From a virus (taxonomy: Duplodnaviria > Heunggongvirae > Uroviricota > Caudoviricetes): 37,035 bases of DNA. A program made the translations under genes and the position numbers. Shown in pieces: positions 9,546-20,003 of this stretch. The notes below the pieces were generated by a model. That model was not told the origin of the DNA. It saw only the letters and a program-made list of their open reading frames with translations, and made no database searches. The stretch is taken from the IMG/VR virus record IMGVR_UViG_2541047861_000014; one strand, given 5' to 3'. How positions within the stretch are numbered: position 1 is the stretch's first letter; the number at the start of each line of letters is the position of its first letter.

Positions 9546-10378
9546 ACAGTTTAACGGCAAATAACCGTTTGTCGCAACAGCTGGTGGTCAGTGTCGCTGA
9601 ACACCTGTTGTTACGGCATGAATGCAGATTACCAAATCACCTGGCTGTAAGTAACCACAGAGAACTTTACCTGACTGTGGGGGGCGAGTTGTGCGGGAAC
9701 TTAACCGCTGGTTTCGTGACGGAAGAGGGCTTTATGTCCATGTTATTCGTTGGGAACCAGAAACACAGCGCGTTATCTATCTTCGCAAAGACTACCCGCA
9801 TGAGTGCTTTAGTCCTTTGTGGAAATTCAGGCGTGATTTTGTTGAGTGTGAAGGACCACCAGCACATTGATTCTGCCATTCCGGGACGTTACACTGTTCA
9901 GGCACCTTATAAAGCGGGTGACGGGATTGGCGTCCTGGAAATGTTATCGGCGATATATGACGCGCCAGCGTCTTTTTTATCGTCTGTGTCTGTGCACACC
10001 CAAATTATGGTGGGCTGGACGGGGGCACCGAAAGGTGCGCCGGTTTCCGATAACGCCGGTTACGCCAACCCCGTTCAGTTCACCACCAGCGAAATTGGCG
10101 TTTCCGGTGGTGAAGGTAATTCACTGTTATCGGAGGCTGCCATCATGGCTACTGTCCCAGCCCTCACTCGTCTGAATGATGAAGACTTACATAAACTCAG
10201 TTATGTAACAACTGCACTACGTGCTCTGCGCAAGGTAACTCTTTCGGATCCGCAGGCGCATCAGGTTTTGGTAGAAACCCTTCTTAACTTGCAGGCTGAA
10301 CGTATTCGTCTGGCGGATAAGGCTAATTTTCATATTCACCGTCTCCTGAATATCAGCGGAGGGCATCGTCATGCTTAA
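9542..10378 (+). CDS. Hypothetical early protein (278 aa)
   Basis: ORF coupled by ATGA overlap to the upstream gene; no recognised motif. Confidence 0.5.
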   Translation: MNSLTANNRLSQQLVVSVAEHLLLRHECRLPNHLAVSNHRELYLTVGGELCGNLTAGFVTEEGFMSMLFVGNQKHSALSIFAKTTRMSALVLCGNSGVILLSVKDHQHIDSAIPGRYTVQAPYKAGDGIGVLEMLSAIYDAPASFLSSVSVHTQIMVGWTGAPKGAPVSDNAGYANPVQFTTSEIGVSGGEGNSLLSEAAIMATVPALTRLNDEDLHKLSYVTTALRALRKVTLSDPQAHQVLVETLLNLQAERIRLADKANFHIHRLLNISGGHRHA

Positions 10379-15833: not shown

Positions 15834-16133
15834 AAAAATTCCTTAATACTGATAACTGGGCGCACTATACACACGTTCCTGAAGAAAGCTATAGTTTTTT
15901 GATGGGGTTGAAGATGGCTGGATGTCTAAAATAAACATTGCTTCATATGTTCAACTATGCGTTAATGATTGCGTCGGTTTGAAGAACAGACGATATACGA
16001 AGTAGTTTACTAAAGCAGTTCTCATTTCAGGTGTTATTCACTTATTCCTTCTTTGAGTCTCTCCAATTAAGTACGAAGTCGTTTCTGTTATACAAGCCAT
16101 TTATGCCGAAAGGCTCAAGTTAAGGAATGTAGA

Positions 16134-16349
16134 ATGTCAAATAAAATGACTGGTTTAGTAAAATGGTTTAACGCTGATAAAGGTTTTGGCTTTATTTCTC
16201 CTGTTGATGGTAGTAAAGATGTGTTTGTGCATTTTTCTGCGATTCAGAATGATAATTTTCGAACCTTGTTTGAAGGTCAAAAGGTTACCTTCTCTGTAGA
16301 GAGTGGTGCTAAAGGTCCTGCAGCAGCAAATGTCATAATTACTGATTAA
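16134..16349 (+). CDS. cspB: Cold-shock protein CspB-like
   Basis: [38 protein letters not shown]...; near-identical to CspB as recalled. Confidence 0.9.
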
Positions 16350-16630
16350 AATTCATAGTTTGTCTGTATACGATAACGAAGAAGGCTGATGCCTGAGTGG
16401 AGATACAGACAGAGTGGTGAATATTGGATCTCTTTAATAAATAGTAAGGAGGTCCAATACATGAAACAATGGCCAGCATATTTGGCAATAACTTAATCAG
16501 GAAAAGTATGCTAACCATTGTGGTGAAGTGCAGGTTTGCTGCATGAATAGTTTTACAGCAGAAGCTAACTGCTGGCATAGCAAAACAAAGTGCGTAAGTG
16601 GATGACTCCCACAAAAAGTACCACAATATT

Positions 16631-16655
16631 AAACCCGCTCAGGCGGGTTTTTTAT
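16631..16655. terminator. Bidirectional rho-independent terminator
   Basis: AAACCCGC-TCAG-GCGGGTTT hairpin flanked by an A-run and a T-run, between the convergent cspB and zinc-ribbon genes. Confidence 0.6.
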
Positions 16656-16712: not shown

Positions 16713-16883
16713 TCAAGCTACAGCTTTAAGATTTGTCTGGAATACTTTGTTGCAATGAGGGCAGATCAAAAGGGCACCTTTTTGTACTCTTGAAAAACTG
16801 TGTTCTGACTCTTGGGTGCAGTTTGGGCAGGAACATTTAACGAGATAATTACGGCGTGATTTTGAGTCTTTACGTTCTGACAT
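16713..16883 (-). CDS. Small zinc-ribbon protein (possibly YnfU-like), 56 aa
   Basis: ATG at 16883 with AGGAAA RBS; two CxxC pairs (CSCPNC, CPHC). Confidence 0.55.
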   Translation of the reverse strand: MSERKDSKSRRNYLVKCSCPNCTQESEHSFSRVQKGALLICPHCNKVFQTNLKAVA

Positions 16884-17101
16884 AGGCTTTTCCTGTATAA
16901 ATGGCCGTATACAGTACACTAAATATGAAAACATATCTCGTATTATTATTTAATATATGATTTTCTTTTAAAATAATTACCCACATTTTTAATGTGTCTG
17001 TTTTTTAGCGCCGTTGAGAACAACGTTTGCTATAAAAACTAACCCATAGACTCCGATCTTTTCAAACATATTGCACCATCTGTGTACATCGGGGTGAGGA
17101 T

Positions 17102-17317
17102 ATGAAATCAATGGATAAGTTAACAACAGGTATCGCCTATGGCACATCGGCTGGTAATGCTGGTTTCTGGGCATTGCAGTTACTCGATAAAGTAACTCCG
17201 TCACAGTGGGCTGCAATCGGTGTGCTGGGTAGTCTGGTTTTTGGCCTGCTGACGTATCTGACAAACCTTTATTTCAAGATTAAAGAAGACAGGCGTAAGG
17301 TTGCGAGAAGAGAGTAA
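17102..17317 (+). CDS. Pinholin, phage-21 S-type with dual start (antiholin/holin)
   Basis: [23 protein letters not shown]...[30 protein letters not shown]; Met1 and Met4 starts as in S21-71/S21-68; two TM segments. Confidence 0.85.
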
Positions 17318-17321
17318 TCCA

Positions 17322-17873
17322 ATGACACAAGACTATGAACTGGTTGTGAAAGGAGTCCGCAATTTTGAGAATAAAGTGGCGGTAACTGTAGCCTTACGGG
17401 ACAAAAAACGCTTTGACGGTGAAATTTTTGACCTGGACATCTCGCTGGACCGTGTTGAAGGTGCCGCGCTGGAGTTTTATGAGGCAGCAGCCAGAATGAG
17501 AATCAGACAGGTATTCCTGGATGTTGCTGCCGGGTTATGTGTAGGGGATGAGCAGTCGCCGGAAAAGCGCCCCATAATTTTAGAGGCGCAGAATGTGTGG
17601 ATAACCTACAAAGGAAAGCTACCGGGAAGAATTACTGGTTCTCTGAAGACGCCACCGACGGCATTGCGGTCAGAAAAAGATGATATTGAATCGCCCATTG
17701 AAAAACTGGAGGGCAGCGTCGCTGATCTGAATAAAAAATTGTCGGTGCTGATCCCTTCTGAAGATGAAAAAAAACGCCGCGATGAGCAGTTTGCGGCGTT
17801 TTACGATTATTGCATTGAAGTTACTCGCAGGAATTTTGTGAAGATTTTTGAGGAGGGTAAATCTCTTCAGTAA
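17322..17873 (+). CDS. Cargo protein between holin and endolysin (ydfR position; 183 aa)
   Basis: ATG at 17322 just after the holin stop; N-terminus MTQDYELVVKGVRNFENKV...; C-terminal half is charged and helical. Confidence 0.55.
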   Translation: MTQDYELVVKGVRNFENKVAVTVALRDKKRFDGEIFDLDISLDRVEGAALEFYEAAARMRIRQVFLDVAAGLCVGDEQSPEKRPIILEAQNVWITYKGKLPGRITGSLKTPPTALRSEKDDIESPIEKLEGSVADLNKKLSVLIPSEDEKKRRDEQFAAFYDYCIEVTRRNFVKIFEEGKSLQ

Positions 17874-18081
17874 GCTTAATGGCGGACGCTGCAATTAATT
17901 CAGGAAGGTCCGCAAGGTCATCTGTCAGTGGATATGATGAAAAATCGGCGGCAGTTCTGTTAAGAAGCGCTTTAACTAATTCCTTTTCCTTCTCCGGCAA
18001 CAAGTTGATTAGAGCTACGACTGCTTGCCTGAGTGCGATTAAATCAGCAAAAGTTTGTTTTGGTAGATTTGTGTAATCCAT
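17821..18081 (-). CDS. Small acidic hypothetical protein (86 aa), convergent with and overlapping the 3' end of the upstream cargo gene
   Basis: ATG at 18081 with GAGG RBS at 5 nt; Asp/Glu/Leu-rich; 53-bp 3'-3' overlap with 17322..17873. Confidence 0.4.
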   Translation of the reverse strand: MDYTNLPKQTFADLIALRQAVVALINLLPEKEKELVKALLNRTAADFSSYPLTDDLADLPELIAASAIKLTEEIYPPQKSSQNSCE

Positions 18082-18194
18082 AGTCACCTCTGTGTTTATC
18101 AGATTGACATCCTCCTCCCGCCAGTGCCCATCACTGGTGAGGTAAGATTTAACATATCCGGGGATTTGAAGCCGATAAATCCTGATAAATATCC

Positions 18195-19222
<1,028 letters not shown>

Positions 19223-19582
19223 ATTAATATTAAATCGGATTATTTTTAGCGCTGAATGTGAAATTTAAATAAAAAGGACTCTTCCATGAGTCAAAATCCT
19301 TGAAATCTTAAGGGTAAGATAAAAGGTCATTAGACAGAATGACACGTTTTATTAATAAATAAAGCTATTGTTTCATTCGTGTGTTTTTCTTTACAAAAGT
19401 AATCCTTGCTATGGTTGGTTAATCATGCGTTAATGGTGTTCTGGTTTGTTACAAAATTATCTGAAGCAGTCATTGTTATAATTTTATTATTTGTACCTCT
19501 TGAGATTTCCTTGTTGGTTTTTCTCTCTGATATTTTTTTTCGGACCATTCTGCCCAAGGGCTAACTTCTTCAAAAGGTAATA

Positions 19583-19798
19583 ATGATGTTTAACAAAATG
19601 ACTGGTTTAGTGAAATGGTTTAACCCTGAAAAAGGTTTTGGTTTCATCACGCCGAAAGATGGTAGCAAAGATGTGTTTGTGCATTTCTCAGCTATTCAGA
19701 GCAACGATTTCAAAACGTTAACTGAGAATCAGGAAGTCGAATTTGGTATTGAGAACGGACCTAAAGGCCCTGCAGCTGTTCATGTAGTGGCACTTTGA
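19583..19798 (+). CDS. cspI: Cold-shock protein CspI-like
   Basis: ...[67 protein letters not shown]; matches CspI as recalled; long AT-rich 5' leader typical of csp genes. Confidence 0.88.
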
Positions 19799-20003
19799 GG
19801 TAGAAAATATTACAAACCATATTCACTTTAGATGCCCGTGTTGCCATGGTTCTCAGTATAGAACATCATCTTTTGATGTTTCTGACAGAAATCCTTTCGG
19901 GGCAAAATGTATCTTTTGTAAATCAATGATGATTACATTTGATAATATTTCACAATACTTAAATGTTAGCCATCTGTCGTTAGATTTAAGAAAGTGAAAA
20001 TGA

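What the first reader, a model, noticed from the sequence alone, without database searches (positions are those of the whole stretch)
17102..18194. Lysis cassette split by two cargo ORFs that overlap convergently by 53 bp
Between the dual-start pinholin and the SAR endolysin lie a 183-aa protein (17322..17873, in the position ydfR occupies in Qin but with a long charged C-terminal extension) and, on the opposite strand, an 86-aa acidic protein (17821..18081) with its own GAGG RBS. Their 3' ends overlap, allowing mutual antisense regulation. Small acidic phage proteins are often DNA mimics or anti-defence factors, and the pair could also be a toxin/antidote-like module. The location guarantees expression at the moment of lysis.
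Basis: partly seen in the sequence, partly recalled or inferred. Interest (0 to 1): 0.55.

Follow-up and report, generated by a model that had tools for sequence, protein, structure and literature searches.

The report
Tail-to-tail gene pair in lysis cassette
Between the holin and endolysin genes of this E. coli CFT073 prophage lie two real genes of unknown function that overlap tail to tail, and related phages keep them together as a pair; it is a modest new detail of phage accessory genes, not a known defence or toxin system.

Summary
ORF183 (17322-17873, +) and ORF86 (17821-18081, -) exist, overlap by 53 nt, and sit between an S21-type pinholin and a SAR endolysin in a CFT073 lambdoid prophage.

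Both ORFs are genuine genes.
- ORF183 is a YdfR/DUF1327 domain with an extra helical tail, here called P. In-frame length variants of 169, 176 and 211 aa keep its reading frame.
- ORF86, here called O, is intact in 49 of 51 distinct cassettes. It has homologues at 41-49% identity, with dN/dS about 0.3.

The new result is that P and O form a conserved pair. Two further lineages keep the same tail-to-tail arrangement, with a 59-nt overlap in the same phase. One is again between holin and endolysin. In the other, P is a free-standing 73-aa gene after Rz, next to the terminase genes.

O lies wholly antisense to the late operon. It has its own Shine-Dalgarno sequence and a conserved upstream block that could be a promoter. 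Expression at lysis is therefore expected for ORF183 but not for O.

No evidence supports a DNA mimic, an anti-defence protein or a toxin-antitoxin module. O resembles about 1.5 TPR-like repeats, which hints at protein binding. Function is still unknown, and interest is moderate.

The parts
17102..17317 (+). S21-type class II holin (pinholin) with dual start MKSM (Met1/Met4). It is the first gene of the lysis cassette.
   Evidence: Pfam PF04971 E 7.3e-34. PGAP annotates it as essQ. pN/pS 0.16.
17322..17873 (+). ORF183, a fusion of a YdfR/DUF1327 domain with a helical 'P' tail. It is on the late strand and starts 4 nt after the holin stop.
   Evidence: phrog_2091, 183/183. Intact in 47 of 51 distinct cassettes, with in-frame variants of 176, 169 and 211 aa. 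PGAP calls only 17322-17657 a 'YdfR family pseudogene, missing C-terminus'.
17322..17657 (+). DUF1327 domain, residues 1-112. The confident beta-beta-beta-alpha core is residues 1-72 (17322-17537), which is the part that binds the RNase E N-terminal domain in K-12 YdfR.
   Evidence: Pfam E 1.6e-41. 82% identity to K-12 YdfR residues 1-73. AF2 pLDDT 65-86 for residues 1-70. PMC13232886.
17670..17873 (+). P tail, residues 117-183: two predicted helices with a conserved KKRRDE...RNFxK...KSxQ motif. It is homologous to a free-standing 73-aa gene in other phages.
   Evidence: BLASTP E 3e-5 to L093 P. Alignment A5. AF2 helices 123-143 and 147-182, at low pLDDT. Hits to phrog_36381 and phrog_15975.
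17821..17873 (.). 53-nt tail-to-tail overlap of ORF183 and ORF86. It encodes the last 17 codons of each. In ORF86 it covers the end of helix 3 (residues 70-74) and the predicted non-helical, lower-confidence C-terminal tail.
   Evidence: Constant at 53 nt in 46 of 51 cassettes. It is 59 nt, in the same phase, in types B and C. ORF86 residues 75-86 are non-helical with the lowest confidence (block means 68 and 47; only 82-86 fall below pLDDT 50).
17821..18081 (-). ORF86 ('O'), a small moderately acidic three-helix protein with TPR-like similarity. It lies antisense to the late operon.
   Evidence: phrog_2572, 86/86, E 1e-53. Intact in 49 of 51 cassettes. Remote homologues P0140 and P0141. Cross-type dN/dS 0.27-0.37. 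AF2 helices 8-27, 30-48 and 56-74, pLDDT 72.
18085..18090 (-). Shine-Dalgarno sequence GAGGTG of ORF86, with 3 nt (ACT) between the motif and the ATG.
   Evidence: Read directly from the sequence. The equivalent site in types B and C is TAAGGA, and AGAGGA in the ORF90 cassette.
18083..18148 (-). Predicted structured 5' leader of ORF86: a hairpin at 18148-18109 and a second hairpin at 18108-18083 that pairs the Shine-Dalgarno sequence.
   Evidence: RNA fold -25.3 kcal/mol, z -3.9, 0 of 200 shuffles as stable. Not conserved in types B and C (z -0.05 to -1.8), so its significance is uncertain.
18151..18192 (-). Conserved block ATGkATATTTATCAGGnnTTATC...GGmTATkGT upstream of ORF86. It is a candidate promoter or operator: -35 TTTATC at 18179-18174, a 17-nt spacer, and -10 TATGTT at 18156-18151. 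On the plus strand the same bases are the translation-initiation region of R.
   Evidence: Invariant in all O types, including type C, which is not next to an endolysin, and in the unrelated ORF90 cassette (alignment A7). Homology to the ORF90-type cassette resumes at 18151. The consensus scan did not call it a promoter, because the -35 matches only 3 of 6 positions.
18195..18728 (+). SAR-type endolysin R (rrrQ).
   Evidence: Pfam PF00959 E 2.6e-24. PGAP annotates it as lysozyme. pN/pS 0.07.
18725..19222 (+). Rz-like spanin (rzpQ, DUF2514). It marks the end of the lysis cassette.

Best explanation
The holin-endolysin spacer carries a conserved two-gene accessory module. I call the two parts P and O.

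P is a helical segment of about 70 aa on the late strand. In this window it is fused in frame to the C-terminus of a YdfR/DUF1327 domain, giving ORF183.

O is ORF86, a small three-helix protein with TPR-like similarity. It is encoded on the opposite strand, and its last 17 codons overlap the last 17 codons of P.

Shown:
- Both genes are real.
- The P-O pairing, the orientation and the overlap phase are conserved.
- O lies entirely inside the late transcription unit, in antisense, with its own ribosome-binding site and a conserved upstream block.

Inferred:
- ORF183 is translated from the Q-antiterminated late mRNA together with S and R. Through its YdfR core it probably docks on RNase E or RNA, as K-12 YdfR does.
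- O is transcribed leftwards from its own weak promoter in the O-R spacer when late transcription is off, that is in the lysogen or early in infection.
- Once late transcription starts, polymerase collision and a fully complementary late RNA silence O.
- O acts as a small protein-binding module, and the late-made P helices are the most likely partner.

On this reading the pair behaves as a lysogeny-versus-lysis switch accessory. It is not a lysis-time cargo pair.
For: Gene reality of O:
- It is the only ORF in the 320-nt spacer and is intact in 49 of 51 distinct cassettes.
- Its indels are in frame.
- Homologues at 41-49% identity were found in a search of 1.8 billion proteins.
- Cross-type dN/dS is 0.27-0.37 with dS above 1.

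Gene reality of P:
- The frame is kept through a 7-aa deletion, a 28-aa insertion and other in-frame variants.
- A free-standing 73-aa homologue overlaps the Rz stop by 8 nt.

Pair conservation:
- Type A (this window): 53-nt overlap.
- Type B: S21 holin, a YdfR of 174 or 243 aa, O, then R, with a 59-nt overlap.
- Type C: Rz, P, O, then terS, with a 59-nt overlap.
- 53 and 59 are equal modulo 3, so the phase is the same.

Module behaviour:
- There is a diversity trough (pi 0.01-0.04) across about 17620-18220, against 0.04-0.23 in the flanking S and R genes.
- The module is attached to several diverged YdfR N-domain alleles.
- Homology breakpoints lie at 17812/18189 and at 17657/18151.

Expression signals of O: a Shine-Dalgarno sequence in every type, and an invariant upstream block that is retained even where no endolysin is adjacent.

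YdfR core: 82% identical to the K-12 fragment (residues 1-72) that binds the RNase E N-terminal domain and co-purifies with RNA.

TPR-like nature of O: HMMER E 1.6e-10, with 8 matched repeats of a CHAT-TPR_10 protein. BLASTP gives 35% identity over 69 aa.
Against: - There are no expression data for either strand.
- The candidate promoter is weak (-35 matches 3 of 6, -10 matches 4 of 6), and the consensus scan did not call it.
- On the plus strand the same block is the initiation region of R, so in types A and B its conservation could be owed to R.
- P is weakly constrained. Within-type pN/pS is 0.45 with no excess of third-position changes, and cross-type dN/dS is 0.55-1.0.
- A 296-aa YdfR form carries the first half of P fused to a different domain, with no O.
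- An unrelated antisense ORF (ORF90, phrog_2411) occupies the same slot next to a tail-less YdfR.
- Nothing tested here addresses a physical P-O interaction.
- The AF2 confidence for P is low, about 50.
- No Pfam TPR model matches O.
Confidence: 0.4

Rival explanations
1. Independent moron plus a junction by-product. O is a self-contained accessory gene, for example for lysogenic conversion or superinfection exclusion, that was dropped in reverse orientation into a recombination-prone slot upstream of R. The 53-nt overlap and the terminal part of ORF183 would then be consequences of where the cassette boundary fell. P would have no functional link to O, and the YdfR extension would be tolerated rather than needed.
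For: - The cassette boundary against the 296-aa YdfR form falls at 17812, 9 nt from O's stop. ORF183 therefore reads about 60 nt into foreign DNA before it stops.
- An unrelated antisense ORF90 cassette sits in the same slot in 1221 of 5426 genomes, and it too overlaps the ydfR 3' end, by 35 nt.
- P is weakly constrained.
- O's overlapping tail is predicted to be non-helical and is the lowest-confidence part of the model.
- PGAP treats the extension as not belonging to YdfR.
Against: - P and O stay together, with the same orientation and overlap phase, in a different genomic context (after Rz, before terS). There P is a separate 73-aa gene with its own start.
- They also stay together in type B, where the O protein has diverged beyond 50%.
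- The P frame survives several in-frame indels.
Confidence: 0.3
2. A toxin-antidote or abortive-infection pair, or an anti-defence protein (DNA mimic or anti-CRISPR-like).
For: - It is a conserved two-gene pair inside a prophage.
- O is small, helical and acidic.
- A profile of O gives weak matches to AcrIIC4 at E about 0.2.
Against: - There are no PADLOC hits and no Pfam toxin or antitoxin hits.
- Neither protein is hydrophobic.
- The layout is convergent rather than an autoregulated operon.
- A net charge of -5.5 over 86 aa is far below that of known DNA mimics (that comparison is from my own knowledge).
- Prophages with P disrupted and O intact exist (L003, L061), and so does the reverse (L076).
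Confidence: 0.1
3. ORF86 is not translated. The functional product would be an antisense RNA, or nothing at all, and the ORF would be incidental.
For: - The family is taxonomically narrow. E. coli was the only species hit in one-genome-per-species GTDB contigs.
- Within-type pN/pS is only 0.43.
- There are no proteomic data.
Against: - Protein-level homologues at 41-49% identity show dN/dS about 0.3 although synonymous sites are saturated.
- A Shine-Dalgarno sequence is conserved in all types.
- Indels are in frame.
- ORF86's own frame has the lowest pN/pS of the six frames. The one complementary frame that shares its third positions scores the same but contains stops in all sequences.
- There is no Rfam match.
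Confidence: 0.04

Closest known systems
YdfR of the E. coli K-12 Qin prophage (DUF1327, PF07041)
   Same: It occupies the same position, immediately after the S21-type holin and on the late strand. Residues 1-73 are 82% identical. Pfam matches at E 1.6e-41. K-12 YdfR residues 1-72 bind the RNase E catalytic half, and the protein co-purifies with RNA (PMC13232886).
   Different: K-12 YdfR is 103 aa, and its stop overlaps the rrrQ start. It therefore has no P tail, no spacer and no antisense gene. ORF183 adds a disordered linker and the 67-aa P tail. RNase E binding has not been tested for ORF183.
Lambda bor and lom type 'morons': accessory genes embedded in or next to the late operon, with bor on the opposite strand just after Rz (from my own knowledge)
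   Same: O is a small accessory gene in reverse orientation within the late region. In type C loci it sits exactly at the bor position, between Rz and the terminase genes. It behaves as a low-diversity cassette recombined into varied backgrounds.
   Different: O shows no sequence or fold relation to Bor and has no lipoprotein signal. It always comes with a late-strand partner whose 3' end it overlaps. Its own promoter and terminator have not been demonstrated.
Convergent 3'-overlap antisense control, for example lambda OOP RNA against cII, or type I toxin-antitoxin loci with 3'-overlapping RNAs (from my own knowledge)
   Same: The geometry is convergent, with complementary 3' ends of about 50-60 nt.
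   Different: Here both partners are protein-coding, and neither is a small hydrophobic toxin. In addition, the whole O gene, not just 53 nt, is complementary to the read-through late mRNA. No RNA-level regulation has been shown.
The ORF90 (phrog_2411) cassette in the same ydfR-R slot
   Same: It is an antisense ORF of about 90 aa, mildly acidic, with its own Shine-Dalgarno sequence and the same conserved upstream block. It overlaps the ydfR 3' end by 35 nt. It occurs in 1221 of 5426 E. coli genomes, including BL21.
   Different: No homology to O is detectable (BLASTP E 0.7; hhalign probability 0.8%). Its YdfR neighbour is the short 114-aa form without a P tail.
TPR_10/TPR_12-type helical repeats
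   Same: O residues 12-75 align to about 1.5 units of the 45-residue repeat of a CHAT-TPR protein. Identity is 35%, the pairwise E is 3e-6, and the library-wide HMMER E is 1.6e-10 over 8 repeats. O's helix 3 repeats the ADL..L..A motif of helix 1.
   Different: No Pfam TPR model matches O. A 1.5-repeat fragment is not a TPR domain. The similarity may be convergent helical-hairpin composition.

Membership tests
YdfR / DUF1327 (PF07041) | Match to the Pfam model above its gathering score | tested here: met
   140.8 bits against a cut-off of 25, covering residues 1-112.
YdfR / DUF1327 (PF07041) | Position directly downstream of a class II (S21-type) holin in a lambdoid lysis cassette | tested here: met
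YdfR / DUF1327 (PF07041) | Binding of the RNase E N-terminal catalytic half, as shown for K-12 YdfR residues 1-72 | not testable with these tools
   The only evidence is 82% identity over residues 1-73 and PMC13232886.
S21-type pinholin / SAR endolysin cassette | Phage_holin_2_1 domain with a dual-start MKSM motif, and an endolysin with a lysozyme domain and a hydrophobic N-terminus | tested here: met
   Pfam E 7e-34 and E 2.6e-24. Sequences MKSMDK... and [24 protein letters not shown]....
Type II toxin-antitoxin module | Two co-directional, co-transcribed genes, with a recognisable toxin or antitoxin domain | tested here: not met
   The genes are convergent. No TA domain was found in Pfam, NCBIfam or PADLOC.
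Type I toxin-antitoxin module (3'-overlapping antisense RNA) | A small hydrophobic membrane toxin opposed by a non-coding antisense RNA | tested here: not met
   Both partners are hydrophilic coding genes, with GRAVY -0.1 and -0.8. There is no Rfam match.
DNA-mimic or anti-defence proteins (Ocr/ArdA-like, anti-CRISPR) | Very high negative charge density, or sequence or fold similarity to a known member | tested here: not met
DUF1823 (PF08853), the label given to this protein in phage record PV340545 | Match to the Pfam model above its gathering score | tested here: not met
   13.2 bits against a cut-off of 25. Best E among the homologues is 0.024.
Phage moron (an autonomously expressed accessory gene within the late region) | Own promoter and terminator, with expression from the repressed prophage | tested here: inconclusive
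   Reverse orientation, its own Shine-Dalgarno sequence and a conserved upstream block with a weak -35/-10. The consensus scan called no promoter, and no minus-strand terminator lies downstream of O. Expression cannot be tested here.
TPR-like repeat proteins | Match to TPR repeat models, or significant similarity to TPR repeats | tested here: inconclusive
   Library-wide E 1.6e-10 to a CHAT-TPR_10 protein over 8 repeats, but no Pfam TPR hit for O itself.

The most novel reading that the evidence does not exclude
P and O form a previously unrecognised two-component switch carried by lambdoid phages. O, a mini TPR-like binding protein made from the repressed prophage, would hold a target in check. 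Candidates are the phage's own YdfR-P, an RNase E-associated activity, or a step of lysis. At induction, Q-dependent late transcription would do two things at once. It would silence O by convergent, antisense transcription, and it would produce the P helices that titrate the remaining O protein. The conserved tail-to-tail overlap would be the physical basis of this either/or expression.
Probability: 0.15. Interest if true: 0.65.

Novelty: new variant of a known kind. Interest (0 to 1): 0.4.

Why it matters
If the model holds, there would be three consequences.

- It would add a defined, widespread accessory module to the best-studied class of phage lysis cassettes. O type A occurs in about 6% of complete E. 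coli genomes, and antisense cassettes of some kind occupy the same slot in about 28%.
- It would give a first functional handle on the variable C-termini of the YdfR/DUF1327 family. The only known activity of that family is binding RNase E.
- It would provide a natural example of two protein-coding genes whose convergent overlap enforces mutually exclusive expression between lysogeny and lysis.

There is also a practical point. PGAP labels ORF183 a 'YdfR pseudogene, missing C-terminus'. That label, and the 'DUF1823' label for ORF86 in a phage record, are annotation artefacts and should be corrected.

If the rival explanation (independent moron plus junction by-product) is right, this is an ordinary example of mosaic phage evolution.

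Tried and rejected
- Defence and toxin libraries. PADLOC gave no hit for ORF183, ORF86 or ORF90. NCBIfam gave none.
- Remnant hypothesis. I tested whether the ORF86 DNA is a decayed remnant of the C-terminal domain of the 296-aa YdfR form. tblastn shows that homology ends at residue 171, and no frame of 17874-18194 matches. Rejected.
- ORF86 and ORF90 as distant homologues. BLASTP E 0.7 and hhalign probability 0.8%. Not supported.
- DUF1823 membership. The match is sub-threshold.
- Known RNA families in 16900-18400. Only chance-level matches.
- Consensus promoter and terminator scan. It found no promoter for ORF86 and no terminator after it.
- Taxonomic breadth. One-genome-per-species GTDB contigs gave E. 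coli only. Type C is absent from complete E. coli genomes, and the phage collection holds no type C locus: the only matches were short (23% of the query, 76-77% identity) stretches of the O gene in E. coli type A phages. Its host is therefore unidentified.
- Literature. Searches for DUF1327, ydfR, and antisense or convergent genes in lysis cassettes found only the 2026 RNase E interaction paper.
Full report
**Where the window comes from**

The 1.2-kb focal segment is 100% identical to E. coli CFT073, S88, APEC O1 and many other strains. The whole window corresponds to a complete-looking lambdoid prophage next to glaH. Its gene order is integrase, repressor, replication genes, Q antiterminator (ydfT), csp morons, lysis genes, further csp morons, terminase, head and tail.

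**Check of the observation**

All coordinates hold.
- The holin (17102-17317) begins MKSMDK, the dual-start motif of S21 pinholins, and matches Phage_holin_2_1 at E 7e-34.
- ORF183 runs from the ATG at 17322, 4 nt after the holin stop, to the TAA at 17871-17873.
- ORF86 runs on the minus strand from the ATG at 18081 to the TAA at 17823-17821. It is preceded by GAGGTG at 18090-18085.
- The two ORFs share 17821-17873, which is 53 nt.
- The endolysin starts at 18195.

ORF183 residues 1-112 are a DUF1327/YdfR domain (E 1.6e-41). Residues 1-73 are 82% identical to K-12 YdfR. ORF86 is only moderately acidic, with pI 4.6 and net charge about -5.5.

**Are both ORFs genes?**

I collected 76 loci that cover the whole cassette, giving 51 distinct sequences.

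ORF86:
- It is intact in 49 of the 51.
- Its known length variants are in-frame.
- It is the only ORF in the 320-nt spacer.
- Within this young lineage pN/pS is 0.43. That is the lowest of the six frames, apart from the complementary frame that shares its third positions, and that frame contains stops in all sequences.

An exhaustive HMMER search of 1.8 billion representative proteins settled the matter. It found homologues of 93 and 89 aa (P0140, P0141) that are 41-49% identical across the whole protein. Codon alignments between the three types give dN/dS of 0.27-0.37 with synonymous sites saturated. ORF86 is therefore a protein-coding gene under purifying selection.

ORF183 extension:
- It is kept open in 47 of 51 cassettes.
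- It tolerates a 7-aa deletion (176-aa form), a 28-aa insertion (211-aa form) and other in-frame variants of 169, 171 and 180 aa.
- It is weakly constrained. pN/pS is 0.45 with no third-position excess, and cross-type dN/dS is 0.55-1.0.

PGAP annotates only 17322-17657 as a 'YdfR family pseudogene, missing C-terminus' in every genome I inspected. Given the frame conservation, this is best read as an artefact of the family's mosaic C-termini.

**The main new result: the pair is conserved**

The loci that encode the remote ORF86 homologues show the same tail-to-tail arrangement.

| Type | Example loci | Gene order | Overlap |
|---|---|---|---|
| A | this window | S21 holin, ORF183 (YdfR + P tail), O, endolysin | 53 nt |
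| B | L103-L109; 12 E. coli genomes | S21 holin, YdfR-family protein of 174 or 243 aa, O-like gene of 93 aa, endolysin | 59 nt |
| C | L093-L095, L098-L102 | Rz (DUF2514), free-standing 73-aa gene, O-like gene, small terminase subunit | 59 nt |

In type C there is no YdfR at all. The 73-aa gene overlaps the Rz stop by 8 nt and converges on the O-like gene.

That 73-aa protein is homologous to ORF183 residues 149-183 by BLASTP (E 3e-5, motif EKKRRDE...RNFxK...KSxQ). It aligns over the whole extension.

So ORF183 is a fusion of the YdfR core with a separate unit, which I call P. P and ORF86 (which I call O) are a conserved convergent pair. Because 53 and 59 are equal modulo 3, the overlap phase is the same in all three types.

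**Cassette behaviour**

- Nucleotide diversity drops to 0.01-0.04 across about 17620-18220. In the flanking S and R genes it is 0.04-0.23.
- The same P-O segment is joined to several diverged YdfR N-domain alleles.
- Against a 296-aa YdfR locus, homology ends at 17812 and resumes at 18189. Against a 114-aa YdfR locus, it ends at 17657 and resumes at 18151.
- The 296-aa form carries the first half of P followed by an unrelated 125-aa domain, with no O. The ORF86 DNA is not a remnant of that domain.
- K-12 Qin has the compact form, in which the ydfR stop overlaps the rrrQ start.
- The 114-aa form is followed by a different antisense ORF of 90 aa (phrog_2411), which overlaps ydfR by 35 nt. It is present in 1221 of 5426 genomes, including BL21. 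It is not detectably homologous to O.

The ydfR-R junction is therefore a slot where antisense cassettes are exchanged.

**Expression logic**

ORF183 lies on the late strand between S and R, so it should be made with them. O lies on the other strand and wholly inside the late transcription unit. The read-through late mRNA is therefore complementary to all of O's mRNA, not only to 53 nt of it.

O has a good Shine-Dalgarno sequence in every type: GAGGTG, TAAGGA or AGAGGA.

Upstream of O lies the block ATGkATATTTATCAGGnnTTATC...GGmTATkGT. It is invariant across types A, B and C and the ORF90 cassette. It is retained in type C, where no endolysin is adjacent. That argues that the block belongs to the antisense gene and not only to R's initiation region.

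The block can be read as a weak sigma-70 promoter, with -35 TTTATC at 18179-18174, a 17-nt spacer and -10 TATGTT at 18156-18151. The consensus scan did not call it, and no terminator follows O.

The type A leader folds into two hairpins, the second of which pairs the Shine-Dalgarno sequence (-25.3 kcal/mol, z -3.9). This structure is not conserved in types B and C.

No expression data were available, so this part of the account is inference.

**What the proteins look like**

AF2 models:
- O is three helices (8-27, 30-48, 56-74; pLDDT 72) followed by a non-helical, lower-confidence tail. That tail is the part encoded in the overlap.
- ORF183 has a reasonably confident beta-beta-beta-alpha core (residues 1-72), a disordered linker, and two long low-confidence helices for P.

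Structure and sequence searches:
- Fold searches gave nothing specific.
- PADLOC, NCBIfam and Rfam gave nothing.
- The 'DUF1823' label used in one phage record is a sub-threshold match.
- A weak profile match to AcrIIC4 (E about 0.2) is not backed by the fold searches.

One lead is worth recording. O aligns to about 1.5 units of the 45-residue TPR_10-type repeat of a CHAT-domain protein. Identity is 35% over 69 aa, the library-wide E is 1.6e-10 over eight repeats, and the pairwise E is 3e-6. O's third helix also repeats the motif of its first. This suggests a small protein-binding helical module, although no Pfam TPR model matches O.

For the YdfR core, the only functional information is a 2026 study. 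It shows that K-12 YdfR residues 1-72 bind the catalytic half of RNase E and that the protein co-purifies with RNA (PMC13232886).

**Verdict**

My best account is a conserved P-O accessory module with opposed expression: O when late transcription is off, and YdfR-P when it is on. O would act as a small binding protein, possibly aimed at P.

The main rival is that O is an independent moron and that the overlap and P tail are by-products of where the cassette boundary fell. Conservation of the pair in a second genomic context argues against that rival but does not exclude it.

Function remains unknown. The finding is a new variant within the known class of phage accessory cassettes and is of moderate interest.

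Noticed in passing
L091:2811-3083 (minus strand); same slot as window 17658-18150: A different antisense ORF of 90 aa (phrog_2411) sits between a 114-aa YdfR and the endolysin and overlaps the ydfR 3' end by 35 nt. It occurs in 1221 of 5426 complete E. coli genomes, including BL21. It shares the upstream block with ORF86 but shows no detectable homology to it.
   Followed up: partly
window 18151-18192: The block GATAAATCCTGATAAATATCC (plus strand) contains two GATAAAT repeats 10 nt apart, directly before the endolysin ATG. It is also conserved in type C loci, which have no adjacent endolysin. It may be a promoter or operator for the antisense gene, or a shared recombination site.
   Followed up: partly
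window 18083-18148 (minus strand): The leader of ORF86 folds into two stable hairpins (-25.3 kcal/mol, z -3.9), the second of which pairs the Shine-Dalgarno sequence. The plus-strand RNA upstream of R also folds well (z -3.1). The structure is not conserved in the other O types.
   Followed up: partly
L088:2501-3391: A 296-aa YdfR variant (phrog_1085; P0068 is indexed in 147 blocks of the contig collection) carries the first half of the P segment fused to an unrelated 125-aa C-terminal domain of unknown function, with no antisense gene.
   Followed up: partly
window 17322-17657: In every genome inspected, PGAP annotates ORF183 as a 'YdfR family pseudogene, missing C-terminus'. This looks like an artefact of the family's mosaic C-termini, because the frame stays open through in-frame indels.
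   Followed up: yes
window 9902-10090 (plus strand): Rfam matches above the gathering score to isrK (9902-9978) and to the C4 antisense RNA (10003-10090). Together these form a P1/P7-type antirepressor control element in the early region of this lambdoid prophage.
   Followed up: no
window 15973-16412 and 19428-19844 (plus strand): Two cspA-type thermoregulator leaders lie upstream of the prophage cold-shock genes cspB and cspI, which flank the lysis cassette. A strong terminator-like hairpin follows cspB at 16631-16650.
   Followed up: no
window 16713-16934 (minus strand): The ynfU-like zinc-ribbon ORF (Pfam YnfU, E 5e-31) lies just upstream of the holin on the opposite strand. The longest ORF is 73 aa, against the 56 aa annotated by PGAP.
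   Followed up: no
L086 and L087 (E. coli UTME-2 and 600029); L003: IS3, IS1 and another insertion interrupt the P-O module or ydfR in some strains, which shows that the slot tolerates disruption in prophages.
   Followed up: no
P0139 (975-aa metagenomic CHAT-TPR protein): The ORF86 sequence matches eight consecutive 45-residue TPR_10-like repeats of this unrelated protein, and ORF86's helix 3 repeats the motif of its helix 1. It is unclear whether this reflects shared ancestry or convergence.
   Followed up: partly
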